From the NCBI RefSeq assembly GCF_003790525.1, contig NZ_CP033635.1: 64,000 nucleotides of DNA. One strand, 5' to 3'. The notes under the pieces are model-generated. The model did not search any database. It was not told the DNA's origin and was given only the letters and a program-made list of their open reading frames with translations. Of this stretch, positions 19,039-19,507 are shown piece by piece. The translations under genes and the position numbers were made by a program. This DNA is from Escherichia coli. Lineage in GTDB: Bacteria > Pseudomonadota > Gammaproteobacteria > Enterobacterales > Enterobacteriaceae. Positions within the stretch are counted from its first letter, which is position 1. Every line of letters starts with the position of its first letter.

Positions 19039-19094
19039 CATGGCGAATAAATAAACGGATCAAGTCGTTCCTGTGACAATGAGGTTATACAAAA

Positions 19095-19187
19095 AGACGC
19101 TTACTCATCAGAAATCTGGTATGCTTTAATTAAACCAGTGTCGCTGATGTGTAAGCGTTGACGTTGGGAGGCGATTAAATGGTTATA
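19095..19187 (+). repeat. Conserved downstream element, copy 1: long imperfect hairpin (cgcttactcatcag...ctgatgtgtaagcg), likely terminator/RNA structure
   Basis: ~90-bp segment ~55 bp after the ORF A stop, largely identical to the segment after ORF B; outer and inner (ctggt/accag) stems. Confidence 0.55.
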
Positions 19188-19507
19188 CCACTCCTACGCC
19201 TTTTCCAGACGGCGTATAAGAGTGCAACATGTTGAGTTTTCCGAGTGAATGGTGCATTTTACTAACCGAGCCATTTGAATCAACCAACGCAATAAAAAAG
19301 ACTGGAATAATAAGCCTGTATTTATTATTCATCGCAATCGCACTCTACGGTTTTATCCTGCAGAAATGAGACTACTTCCAGCGGTTGTGGATTATCCCTG
19401 GGCGATAGTCATAGTCTGGTGTCAGGATTCACAAATGACCTGTTACCTGACATGGATATAAACACAACATAGAGTGCGGTAGTTAATCTGAATCATCTAT
19501 TTTTCGG

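What the first reader, a model, noticed from the sequence alone, without database searches (positions are those of the whole stretch)
19039..19507. 470-bp non-coding gap between convergent island genes (possible sRNA or degraded gene remnant)
Between the stop of paralog A and the stop of the minus-strand gene there is ~470 bp with no convincing ORF. It contains the conserved hairpin, and its distal part appears less AT-rich than the island genes. Convergent gene ends need little spacer, so the extra ~350 bp may hold a small RNA, a decayed gene fragment or the original insertion junction.
Basis: inference. Interest (0 to 1): 0.35.

Follow-up and report, generated by a model that had tools for sequence, protein, structure and literature searches.

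The report
Gene-fragment scar between effector genes
The 469-bp "empty" spacer in this E. coli effector island is mostly wreckage of two neighbouring housekeeping genes (yieH and cbrC) left by an old duplication, plus one conserved RNA hairpin; it is an ordinary genomic scar, not a new gene.

Summary
Window 19039-19507 is a 469-bp spacer between the convergent stops of espY5' (paralog A) and the pentapeptide-repeat gene espX3. It has no ORF over 49 aa and is GC-richer (0.41) than the island genes (0.30).

About 70% of the spacer has an identifiable origin. From left to right:
- **19039-19091:** a 53-nt variable flank.
- **19096-19159:** a 64-nt hairpin, the second copy of the one between espY4 and yieH.
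- **19175-19284, minus strand:** two fragments of yieH (last ~17 codons plus stop, and codons 106-130).
- **19285-19432, minus strand:** the first 49 codons of cbrC, with two in-frame stops.
- **19433-19507:** 75 nt of unknown origin.

The cbrC'|yieH' joint at 19284/19285 is clean, sits on a shared TGCGT microhomology, and has the order expected of a duplication joint. All twelve allele classes examined share it. The small ORFs are broken in several strains, and indels occur. Diversity (0.062) lies nearer the neighbours' synonymous level (0.09-0.10) than their non-synonymous level (0.013-0.028). No Rfam family matches and promoter-like sites are not enriched.

Only the hairpin stem is conserved, and it pairs best as plus-strand RNA. 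I read the spacer as a duplication scar with one selected terminator/3'-end hairpin. The sRNA idea is unsupported. Interest is low.

The parts
16528..19038 (+). Paralog A. This is espY5' (Z5214 / ECs4657), annotated 'type III effector protein' in RefSeq. Its stop codon is the left edge of the gap.
   Evidence: ORF. RefSeq annotation. Names from PMC4048457 and PMC5931665. Among strains piN/piS is 0.92, and the gene is broken in several of them.
19039..19091 (.). Variable 3' flank of paralog A, with no detectable homology to the flank of paralog B. It ends in the A-run 19091-19095, which reads as a U5 tract on the minus strand.
   Evidence: Alignment. Diversity pi = 0.116, with an extra ~31 nt at the A stop / first bases of the gap in one allele (L010). 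Sequence.
19096..19159 (+). Conserved imperfect hairpin: 22 base pairs with a 13-14-nt loop. This is copy 1; copy 2 lies at 23461-23525. It is probably a 3'-end stem-loop or terminator for the convergent genes.
   Evidence: Folding energy -30.2 kcal/mol (z = -4.1) on the plus strand and -24.5 (z = -4.8) on the minus strand. There are exactly two copies per genome, and only in genomes with this island. Stems are 95.7% identical across copies and strains, against 78.7% for the loop and 75-80% for the flanks. 306/308 cells pair as plus-strand RNA against 281/308 as minus-strand RNA.
19175..19228 (-). yieH remnant 1: the stop codon (19177-19175) plus the last ~17 codons. It is heavily decayed.
   Evidence: blastn homology 19092-19177 vs 23457-23543 runs from the hairpin through the yieH stop codon. 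tblastx aligns VALLYAVWKRRRSGITI* with LAQLPALWKARGWNITR*, 9 of 18 identical. On its own this is weak (27/54 nt); contiguity with the hairpin supports it.
19207..19284 (-). yieH remnant 2: codons 106-130, in a different frame from remnant 1. About 80 codons between the two remnants are deleted.
   Evidence: tblastn places YieH aa 106-130 at 65% identity, E = 6e-5 against the 64-kb window. blastn gives 82.8% over 64 nt to the yieH allele of strain JNE25-005, E = 8e-12.
19285..19432 (-). cbrC (yieJ) remnant: codons 14-49 are clear (19286-19393) and contain two in-frame stop codons. Codons 1-13 are only weakly recognisable and end at a GTG at 19432-19430.
   Evidence: blastn gives 74.8% over 111 nt to cbrC, E = 1e-10 against 28 Gb; about 3,540 genomes without the gap sequence itself still match, the listed ones within cbrC. 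tblastn places CbrC aa 14-49 at 61% identity, E = 1.8e-8. The 5' extension is my own ungapped reading: 22/44 nt, collinear.
19284..19285 (-). Duplication joint. Reading 5'->3' on the minus strand, cbrC codon ~49 (..TTTTATTGCGTTG) is joined directly to yieH codon ~106 (GTTGATTCAAATGG..). The two parent genes share TGCGT at this point.
   Evidence: Nucleotide comparison of the gap with cbrC and yieH. The joint is identical in all twelve allele classes examined.
19433..19507 (.). 75 nt between the cbrC' start and the stop of the pentapeptide gene. Origin is unresolved: possibly the former cbrC leader or the espX3 3' flank.
   Evidence: No significant match. GC is 0.36. A 6-7-nt deletion and 1-nt indels occur among strains.
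19508..20695 (-). Pentapeptide-repeat gene. This is espX3 (ECs4654/4655 in O157, where it is split). Its stop codon is the right edge of the gap.
   Evidence: ORF. RefSeq annotates it 'pentapeptide repeat-containing protein'. Pfam pentapeptide hits are weak and below cut-off. Name from PMC5931665.
20978..23404 (+). Paralog B, espY4. It is 33% identical to A at the protein level.
   Evidence: RefSeq annotates it 'T3SS effector EspY4'. blastp of A vs B gives 33% identity, E = 4e-113.
23461..23525 (+). Hairpin copy 2. It lies between the espY4 stop and the yieH stop and is the template arrangement for the left part of the gap.
   Evidence: -32.0 kcal/mol on the plus strand, -31.7 on the minus strand.
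23541..24206 (-). Intact yieH (6-phosphogluconate phosphatase), the parent of the two remnants in the gap.
   Evidence: RefSeq annotation; translation.

Best explanation
The spacer is a rearrangement scar, not a gene.

The AT-rich island between phoU and yieH is the Z5211-Z5214 / espY5'-espX3-espY4 locus of E. coli. Before the rearrangement it had the order (window orientation): cbrC(-), espX3(-), espY(+), hairpin, yieH(-).

Two copies of this locus then recombined illegitimately. They may have been sister chromosomes (a tandem duplication) or an incoming homologous fragment anchored on the yieH/adeP side. The crossover was at a TGCGT microhomology between yieH codon ~105/106 and cbrC codon ~49/50. 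The result was espY(A)-hairpin-yieH'|cbrC'-espX3-espY(B)-hairpin-yieH.

The orphaned yieH' and cbrC' pieces have since decayed roughly neutrally: an ~80-codon internal deletion, a frameshift, two stop codons and partial AT enrichment. These pieces form the extra ~260 bp and explain the intermediate GC content.

The only element still under selection is the 64-nt hairpin. I infer that it marks or stabilises the 3' end of the espY5' mRNA on the plus strand. On the minus strand, followed by CUUUUUG, it would act as an intrinsic terminator for espX3. That would make most of the gap a long, functionless 3' UTR of espX3.

Shown here: the homologies, the joint, the decay, and the conservation of the hairpin stem. 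Inferred: the order of events, the recombination mechanism, and the terminator function.
For: **Identity of the locus.** pstSCAB-phoU | island | yieH-adeP, with B annotated EspY4. This matches the Z-locus of PMC2646131.

**Remnants.**
- cbrC: 74.8% over 111 nt, E = 1e-10 against 28 Gb; aa 14-49 at 61% with two in-frame stops, E = 1.8e-8.
- yieH: aa 106-130 at 65%, E = 6e-5; 82.8% over 64 nt to another yieH allele.
- The hairpin plus the yieH stop codon is copied as one block at 84% identity.

**Joint.** The order cbrC' then yieH' on the coding strand is the reverse of the native order yieH then (cbrB then) cbrC. That reversal is what a duplication joint looks like. The joint is clean and lies on a shared TGCGT. 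All allele classes share it.

**The duplication happened in place.** The hairpin is absent from the native yieH 3' flank in bgl-type and phoU-cbrC-yieH-type loci. The hairpin/yieH junction therefore exists only in this island, so the copy was made after the island sat next to yieH.

**Independent support.** At least 15 genomes keep the last 16 codons of cbrC to the left of paralog A, next to yieK. The A-hairpin-yieH' block thus lies between the two ends of cbrC.

**No constraint outside the hairpin.**
- Gap diversity is 0.062, against synonymous diversity 0.087-0.102 and non-synonymous 0.013-0.028 in yieH and espX3.
- The 46-aa and 31-aa ORFs carry stops, a lost start or frameshifts in several strains, and the 49-aa minus-strand ORF has lost its start codon in O157.
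- The spacer tolerates a 6-7-nt deletion and a 328-nt deletion; one allele has an extra ~31 nt at its left edge.

**Hairpin constraint.** Stems are 95.7% identical, against 75-80% for loop and flanks. 306/308 cells are paired on the plus strand.
Against: - Paralogs A and B are far more diverged (33% aa, 55% nt) than the hairpin copies (84%) or yieH'/yieH (68-83% nt). One simple duplication clock does not fit. It requires very fast or recombination-driven evolution of the espY genes. That is plausible, since A alleles differ by 22% within E. coli with piN/piS 0.92, but it is not proven.
- No genome with the predicted pre-duplication arrangement (intact cbrC next to espX3, single espY) was found. 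The one genome-contig scan returned no other species.
- The left-hand junction, between the cbrC C-terminal remnant and paralog A, contains ~330 nt of unexplained sequence.
- The C-terminal yieH piece is weak on its own (50% nt).
- Gap diversity is about 60-70% of the flanking synonymous diversity, so mild constraint is not excluded.
- The hairpin shows no compensatory double substitutions, and there is no U-tract on the plus strand.
- Terminator function is untested.
Confidence: 0.8

Rival explanations
1. The gap encodes an independent small regulatory RNA. It could have its own promoter with the hairpin as terminator, or be processed from the 3' UTR of espX3 or espY5'.
For: The hairpin is strongly structured and its stem is conserved. 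On the minus strand it is followed by a U5 tract. The rest of the gap folds slightly better than shuffled sequence (z -1.9 and -2.1). One promoter-like site on each strand lies inside the gap.
Against: No Rfam family matches; the only hit is a chance miRNA model at E = 0.63 on the hairpin. Promoter-like sites are not enriched: 4 found against 4.2 expected in the region. The sequence outside the hairpin is explained by decayed yieH and cbrC. It varies at a near-neutral level, with indels and a 328-nt deletion in one strain. The locus is reported as almost silent in 10 of 11 conditions in O157 (PMC4048457).
Confidence: 0.08
2. The gap encodes one or two small proteins. Candidates are the 46-aa plus-strand ORF 19229-19369, which has a hydrophobic C-terminus and overlaps by ATGA with the 31-aa ORF 19366-19461, and the 49-aa minus-strand ORF 19183-19332.
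For: All three ORFs have ATG starts. The 46-aa product ends in a membrane-like stretch, IISLYLLFIAIALYGFIL. The ATGA overlap resembles translational coupling.
Against: Across the allele classes the 46-aa ORF has premature stops in two and a lost stop in O157. The 31-aa ORF has a lost start, an internal stop or a frameshift in three. The 49-aa ORF is a frame-shifted cbrC'/yieH' chimera and has lost its start codon in O157. The plus-strand ORFs lie mostly antisense to the cbrC and yieH remnants; the equivalent antisense frame of intact cbrC contains a stop. There are no Pfam hits.
Confidence: 0.03
3. The yieH and cbrC fragments were not produced by duplication of the local locus. Instead they arrived already attached to paralog A, as the old flank of a donor genome that carried an espY-hairpin-yieH arrangement. 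Only one illegitimate join was then needed.
For: A and B are only 33% identical, as if they came from long-separated lineages. yieH is itself extremely polymorphic in E. coli (64-76% nt between island-type and bgl-type alleles in nt 75-370), so divergent donors exist. The remnant resembles another strain's yieH allele (82.8%) more than the resident one (68%).
Against: This is a variant of the main explanation rather than a contradiction, because it yields the same joint and the same scar. No donor lineage with a single espY5-like gene next to yieH was found. The joint is shared by all alleles, so the event is old either way.
Confidence: 0.25

Closest known systems
Z5211-Z5214 'Z-locus' of E. 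coli O157:H7 and phylogroup D/E/F strains (Sankar et al. 2009, PLoS Genet, PMC2646131)
   Same: It is the same locus. An AT-rich (~30% GC) islet lies between phoU and yieH and contains two distantly related large ORFs plus a middle gene. It is clonally inherited and present in about 20% of strains: 1094/5426 here, 19% in the paper.
   Different: The paper treats the genes as ORFans that 'presumably replace' bgl and does not mention gene remnants (0 occurrences of 'remnant'). Here the spacer is shown to contain yieH and cbrC (yieJ) fragments. At least 15 complete genomes carry bgl-yieLK and the island together. The island therefore occupies the cbrC-cbrB position rather than the bgl position.
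Non-LEE effector genes espY4, espX3' and espY5' of EHEC O157:H7 Sakai (ECs4653, ECs4654/55, ECs4657; Tobe et al. 2006 as cited in PMC6313403 and PMC5931665)
   Same: These are the flanking genes. B is annotated EspY4 in RefSeq. A corresponds to EspY5' and the pentapeptide gene to EspX3'.
   Different: In this window espX3 is an intact 395-aa ORF and espY5 an intact 836-aa ORF, whereas in O157 they are listed as pseudogenes. The finding concerns the non-coding spacer, which those papers do not discuss.
Pseudogene relics at tandem-duplication or illegitimate-recombination joints (general bacterial genome evolution; homology-facilitated illegitimate recombination, de Vries & Wackernagel 2002, from my own knowledge)
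   Same: The downstream gene fragment is fused to the upstream gene fragment in reversed order. The join sits on a 5-nt microhomology, and decay afterwards is roughly neutral.
   Different: The mechanism is inferred from a joint that has since diverged 20-30%. The microhomology cannot be proven to be the actual crossover site.
Bidirectional intrinsic terminators between convergent genes (Ju, Li & Liu 2019, Nat Microbiol, from my own knowledge)
   Same: A single long hairpin sits between convergent genes, with an A-run on one side that gives a U-tract to the opposite-strand transcript.
   Different: Only one side has a U-tract. In copy 1 it is on the minus strand; copy 2 has none of quality. 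Yet the substitution pattern favours the plus-strand RNA. Termination was not measured.

Membership tests
yieH pseudogene fragment (HAD-family 6-phosphogluconate phosphatase) | Significant sequence similarity to yieH | tested here: met
   tblastn places aa 106-130 at 65% identity, E = 6e-5 against the 64-kb window. blastn gives 82.8% over 64 nt to the JNE25-005 yieH allele, E = 8e-12. The C-terminal piece is 9/18 aa plus the stop codon, contiguous with the hairpin homology.
yieH pseudogene fragment (HAD-family 6-phosphogluconate phosphatase) | Loss of coding integrity (truncation, frameshift) | tested here: met
   Only codons ~106-130 and ~205-221 remain. They are in different frames, and about 80 codons between them are deleted.
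cbrC (yieJ, PF03691/UPF0167) pseudogene fragment | Significant sequence similarity to cbrC | tested here: met
   blastn gives 74.8% over 111 nt, E = 1e-10 against 28 Gb; about 3,540 genomes without the gap sequence still match, the listed ones within cbrC. tblastn places aa 14-49 at 61% identity, E = 1.8e-8.
cbrC (yieJ, PF03691/UPF0167) pseudogene fragment | Loss of coding integrity | tested here: met
   There are two adjacent in-frame stop codons, the gene is truncated after codon 49, and the start is ATG->GTG at best.
Tandem-duplication / illegitimate-recombination joint | Fragments of two neighbouring genes joined in the reverse of their native order, with flanking sequence duplicated on both sides | tested here: met
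   The native order on the coding strand is yieH then (cbrB then) cbrC. In the gap it is cbrC' then yieH'. The hairpin plus yieH 3' end, and the espY upstream region (16377-16442 vs 20827-20892), are both duplicated.
Tandem-duplication / illegitimate-recombination joint | Microhomology at the joint | tested here: inconclusive
   Both parent genes carry TGCGT at the crossover point. The sequences have since diverged, and a 5-nt match can arise by chance.
Intrinsic (Rho-independent) terminator | Stable stem-loop immediately followed by a U-tract on the transcribed strand | tested here: inconclusive
   On the minus strand of copy 1 the stem (-24.5 kcal/mol) is followed by CUUUUUG, so the feature is met. 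On the plus strand there is no U-tract (GUUGACGUUGGG). Copy 2 on the minus strand has only CUAUUCCCU. The consensus scan did not call it, because the loop and stem fall outside its limits.
Intrinsic (Rho-independent) terminator | Transcripts actually end there | not testable with these tools
   No RNA-seq or Term-seq data are available here.
Small regulatory RNA gene | Match to a described RNA family | tested here: not met
   Rfam 15 in E-value mode gives only mir-590 at E = 0.63 (chance) on the hairpin.
Small regulatory RNA gene | Sequence or structure conservation above the neutral level across strains | tested here: not met
   Outside the hairpin, pi is 0.048-0.061, against synonymous diversity 0.087-0.102. 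Indels and a 328-nt deletion are tolerated.
Small regulatory RNA gene | Independent transcription | not testable with these tools
   Promoter-like sites are at chance level. No expression data are available here.
Small protein / type I toxin ORF | ORF kept intact among strains | tested here: not met
   Stops, lost starts and frameshifts occur in several allele classes.
Dispersed repeat (REP/BIME/ERIC/MITE) | Many copies around the genome | tested here: not met
   The hairpin occurs at most twice per genome, both copies in this island, in 1108 genomes and nowhere else.

The most novel reading that the evidence does not exclude
The 64-nt hairpin is a dedicated, selected RNA element of espY-type effector mRNAs. 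It would be a U-tract-less 3' stem-loop that stabilises or terminates the plus-strand transcript and doubles as a terminator for the convergent gene. It has been kept in both copies through about 45% nucleotide divergence of the adjacent coding sequences.

Separately, the scar shows that the effector islet was built in place, next to yieH in a cbrC-bearing, bgl-positive ancestor, by microhomology-mediated duplication. The common 'bgl replaced by ORFans' state would then be a later deletion.
Probability: 0.3. Interest if true: 0.35.

Novelty: new member of a known kind. Interest (0 to 1): 0.22.

Why it matters
The practical value is modest.

- **Annotation.** It explains an unannotated 469-bp stretch present in about 20% of E. 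coli genomes, including O157:H7. It removes that stretch from the list of candidate sRNA or small-protein loci.
- **Locus history.** It gives a datable marker for the espY5'-espX3-espY4 effector islet. The islet was assembled in place next to yieH, in an ancestor that still had cbrC and, judging from at least 15 hybrid genomes, the bgl operon. This refines the published view that the islet simply replaced bgl.
- **Follow-up.** The conserved hairpin is a cheap, testable candidate for a terminator or mRNA-stability element of horizontally acquired, H-NS-silenced effector genes.

Tried and rejected
- **Rfam scan** of 15500-24500 in E-value mode. It gave only a chance miRNA hit on the hairpin and a sub-threshold REP-like naRNA4 hit at the island's left edge.
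- **Promoter/terminator consensus scan.** Counts were at shuffle level.
- **Small ORFs.** Rejected after comparison across strains and by the absence of Pfam hits.
- **Other species carrying the island.** I searched for the predicted single-espY ancestor using the pentapeptide protein against 100,044 species genomes. The only hit was one 4.4-kb contig labelled Collinsella that is 99% identical to E. coli, most likely contamination.
- **Other bgl-locus remnants** (bglGFBH, yieL, yieK, cbrB) in the island. None were found.
- **Homology of the island's left 330 nt** (16155-16377 and the hybrid-strain equivalent) to espX3, cbrC or yieH. There was only a non-significant yieH-like match at E = 0.1-0.2.
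- **Hairpin as the native yieH terminator.** Rejected. bgl-type and phoU-cbrC-yieH-type loci have a different hairpin downstream of yieH.
- **Hairpin as a dispersed repeat.** Rejected.
- **Covariation support for the hairpin.** There are no double compensatory changes, only one-sided wobble changes.
- **Using A/B divergence as a clock for the duplication.** Rejected as unreliable, because espY alleles differ by up to 22% within the species.
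Full report
**Where we are.** The window is an E. coli chromosome. The segment around the finding reads pstSCAB-phoU | AT-rich islet 16200-23450 | yieH-adeP (composition; RefSeq annotation of identical loci).

The islet carries three genes:
- An 836-aa plus-strand ORF (16528-19038, 'paralog A').
- A 395-aa minus-strand ORF (19508-20695).
- An 808-aa plus-strand ORF (20978-23404, 'paralog B').

RefSeq annotates B as 'T3SS effector EspY4', A as 'type III effector protein', and the middle gene as 'pentapeptide repeat-containing protein'. In the literature the O157 equivalents are ECs4653 = EspY4, ECs4654/4655 = EspX3' and ECs4657 / Z5214 = EspY5' (PMC5931665; PMC4048457; PMC6313403). 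The whole islet is the 'Z5211-Z5214 locus' of Sankar et al. 2009 (PMC2646131). They described it as ORFans that presumably replace the bgl operon in phylogroup D.

**Checking the observation.** The stop of A is TAA at 19036-19038. The stop of the minus-strand gene is TAG at 19510-19508. The gap is therefore exactly 19039-19507, or 469 bp.
- The longest ORFs inside are 49, 46, 32 and 31 aa.
- GC is 0.409, against 0.295-0.314 for the three island genes and 0.52 for yieH.
- The hairpin (19096-19159) folds at -30.2 kcal/mol, z = -4.1.
- The gap is present once, unannotated, in 1094 of 5426 complete E. coli genomes, at 90-100% identity.

**What the sequence is.** A self-comparison of the gap against the rest of the window showed that 19092-19177 is a copy (84%, E = 8.5e-21) of 23457-23543. 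That target is the hairpin downstream of paralog B together with the stop codon of yieH.

Translated comparison extended this into yieH on the minus strand. The last ~17 codons align at 9/18 identical. A second block, 19284-19207, matches YieH residues 106-130 at 65% (E = 6e-5 against the 64-kb window). At the DNA level that block is 82.8% identical over 64 nt to the yieH allele of strain JNE25-005 (E = 8e-12). The two yieH pieces are in different frames, and about 80 codons between them are missing.

A sensitive DNA search with the distal half of the gap then hit about 3,540 further genomes at ~75% identity over 111 nt (E = 1e-10 against 28 Gb); every such hit in the listed sample lay within cbrC (yieJ). 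At the protein level, 19393-19286 on the minus strand reads [34 protein letters not shown], against CbrC residues 14-49 [36 protein letters not shown]. That is 61% identity with two in-frame stops. Upstream, an ungapped and collinear but weak (22/44 nt) continuation reaches a GTG at 19432-19430, where the cbrC ATG would be.

No remnants of bglGFBH, yieL, yieK or cbrB were found anywhere in the islet.

The 469 bp therefore break down as follows:

| Coordinates | Content |
|---|---|
| 19039-19091 | 53-nt variable flank |
| 19096-19159 | 64-nt hairpin |
| 19175-19284 | ~110 nt of yieH' |
| 19285-19432 | ~148 nt of cbrC' |
| 19433-19507 | 75 nt unexplained |

The intermediate GC (0.42 in both remnants) fits core-genome sequence that is drifting toward the AT-rich surroundings. 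The parent segments have GC 0.435-0.593.

**The joint.** In bgl-type E. coli the order on the coding strand is yieH -> cbrB -> cbrC. In a locus with neither bgl nor the islet it is yieH -> cbrC, the arrangement Sankar et al. report for E. albertii. In the gap the order is cbrC'(1-49) -> yieH'(106-...). That reversal is the signature of a joint between two copies of a locus, whether by tandem duplication or by an equivalent illegitimate exchange.

The switch is abrupt at 19285/19284. Both parents carry TGCGT there: cbrC has ..TTTTATTGCGTTGATGAA.., yieH has ..GATGTGCGTCGTCTCT.., and the gap has ..TTTTATTGCGTTGGTTGATTC...

Because the hairpin is not found downstream of yieH in bgl-type or cbrC-only loci, the hairpin/yieH-stop junction is specific to this islet. 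Its duplication must therefore have happened after the islet lay next to yieH.

The duplicated unit also included the espY upstream region (16377-16442 vs 20827-20892, 74%). All twelve allele classes inspected share the same joint. These include the three most divergent classes and three lineages that still carry bgl. The event therefore predates the diversification of the islet.

**Independent support from hybrid genomes.** Strain JNE25-005 and at least 14 other complete genomes carry the arrangement bglGFBH-yieL-yieK, then the last 16 codons of cbrC (FRCLHCGKLRLWGDFS*), then the islet, then yieH. They fall into at least five junction-sequence classes (89.7-100% identity). The C-terminal end of cbrC is thus on the left of paralog A and its N-terminal end on the right, in the gap. 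The block [A-hairpin-yieH'] lies inside what used to be cbrC.

This also means the islet occupies the cbrC-cbrB position and not the bgl position. The common phoU-adjacent form is most simply a later deletion of bgl-yieLK. This is an inference; Sankar et al. do not state it.

**Is anything in the gap under selection?** Eight strains with alignable loci were compared:

| Segment | Diversity |
|---|---|
| Whole gap | 0.062 |
| yieH' | 0.061 |
| cbrC' | 0.048 |
| Distal 75 nt | 0.051 |
| espX3 synonymous | 0.102 |
| yieH synonymous | 0.087 |
| Non-synonymous (yieH, espX3) | 0.013-0.028 |

The gap is much closer to the neutral level than to the constrained one, though mild constraint cannot be excluded.

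Indels occur: an extra ~31 nt at the A stop / left edge of the gap in one allele, a 6-7-nt deletion, and a deletion in strain RMDEC465 that removes the first 247 nt of the gap together with the 3' part of A (328 gap columns in all).

The 46-aa plus-strand ORF (hydrophobic C-terminus, ATGA overlap with the 31-aa ORF) has premature stops in two alleles and a lost stop in O157. The 31-aa ORF is broken in three alleles. The 49-aa minus-strand ORF is a frame-shifted cbrC'/yieH' chimera that has lost its start in O157.

Rfam gives nothing meaningful. Promoter-like sites are at chance frequency. Folding of 19180-19507 is only marginally better than shuffles.

**The hairpin.** This is the one conserved element.
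- It occurs exactly twice per genome, only in islet-bearing genomes (1108 genomes). It is therefore not a REP-type dispersed repeat.
- Across 14 distinct sequences (both copies, all allele classes), stem positions are 95.7% identical, against 78.7% for the loop and 75-80% for the flanks.
- No pair shows a compensatory double change, so classical covariation support is lacking.
- Five variable pairs alternate between Watson-Crick and G·U when read as plus-strand RNA, and one further pair is G·U in 12 of 14 sequences. On the minus strand these would be A·C mismatches. Overall 306/308 cells pair on the plus strand against 281/308 on the minus strand. With so few independent events this is only suggestive. 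It points to the espY-sense RNA as the selected form.
- On the plus strand there is no U-tract after the stem. On the minus strand copy 1 is followed by CUUUUUG.

My reading, which is inference, has two parts. The hairpin defines or protects the 3' end of the espY mRNAs. In the gap it is also the first plausible terminator met by espX3 transcripts, so most of the gap would be a passive ~350-420-nt 3' UTR.

**Difficulties.**
- A and B are only 33% identical in protein and 55% in DNA. That is much more diverged than the duplicated hairpin or the yieH fragments. Either espY genes evolve extremely fast or by allelic replacement, or the second copy came from a diverged donor by a one-sided homologous, one-sided illegitimate exchange. 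Fast evolution is supported: A alleles differ by 7% or 22% within E. coli while the adjacent gap differs by 1-9%, with piN/piS 0.92 for A and 0.64 for B. Both routes give the same scar, and I could not separate them.
- No genome with the predicted single-espY precursor was found.
- About 330 nt at the islet's left edge remain unexplained.

**Comparison with what is known, and verdict.** The islet and its genes are known. The spacer's content has not been described in the papers I could read (PMC2646131 does not contain the word 'remnant'). What it contains is an ordinary kind of thing: pseudogene fragments at a duplication joint, plus a terminator-like hairpin.

I rate the novelty as a new member of a known kind and the interest as low (0.22). 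There are two modest by-products: a refined history of the bgl/Z locus, and a testable conserved 3' hairpin of espY genes.

Noticed in passing
window 16528-19038 (paralog A, espY5'); loci L004-L011: Alleles of paralog A fall into classes that differ by ~7% or ~22% nucleotide identity within E. coli, while the adjacent gap differs by only 1-9%. piN/piS is 0.92. The gene is frameshifted, has an internal stop, is left unannotated or is partly deleted in several strains. This looks like mosaic allelic replacement or pseudogene-like drift.
   Followed up: partly
L011 1-2500; L016, L017, L018 (1-9700): At least 15 complete E. coli genomes, in several divergent allele classes, carry the full bgl operon plus yieL-yieK, the last 16 codons of cbrC, and then the effector islet. 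The islet and bgl are therefore not mutually exclusive alternatives, as the 2009 description implies.
   Followed up: partly
window 23541-24206 (yieH) vs L006 9737-10402: yieH of islet-bearing strains is only 64-76% identical in nt 75-370 to yieH of bgl-type E. coli, and 74% in the last 74 nt. The first 74 nt are 95% identical, and the first ~450 nt beyond the yieH start (intergenic region and adeP 5' end) are 99-100% identical. This is an unusually deep intraspecies polymorphism in a core gene.
   Followed up: no
window 16134-16195: A REP-like element lies at the left edge of the islet, right after phoU (sub-threshold Rfam naRNA4 hit, 33 bits, E = 0.006). Homology between the phoU-adjacent and yieK-adjacent forms of the islet starts inside it, at 16155. 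It may have mediated the deletion of bgl-yieLK.
   Followed up: no
window 16377-16442 and 20827-20892; 20696-20977: A 66-nt block upstream of both espY paralogs is conserved at 74% between the copies. The espX3-espY4 divergent intergenic region is the least variable segment of the islet among strains (pi 0.023). This suggests a conserved regulatory region.
   Followed up: no
L012 (JAIJJM010000244.1, 4436 bp): A contig of a metagenome-assembled genome labelled Collinsella sp. carries this E. coli islet at 91% protein identity and 99% DNA identity in the gap. It is almost certainly a binning contaminant.
   Followed up: no
L013 5851-6000 (yieH-cbrC intergenic of a locus lacking bgl and the islet): The 150-nt spacer contains sequences matching both the start region (GGGAGTTTGATA..) and the end region (..CTGAAACAGACTCTTTAAGTTAAGC) of cbrB of bgl-type E. 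coli. It looks as if cbrB had been precisely deleted there, or inserted in the bgl type.
   Followed up: no
window 16225-16317 (+): There is a very weak, non-significant translated similarity (10/31 aa, E = 0.1-0.2 in a tiny database) to YieH residues 108-138 near the left edge of the islet. It is probably chance, but it covers the same yieH region as the remnant in the gap.
   Followed up: no
L007 5985-6656 (O157:H7) vs window 19508-20695: In O157:H7 only a 672-nt part of the pentapeptide gene (espX3) is annotated (223 of 395 codons). The unannotated stretch downstream of espY5' is therefore about 1 kb there instead of 469 bp.
   Followed up: no
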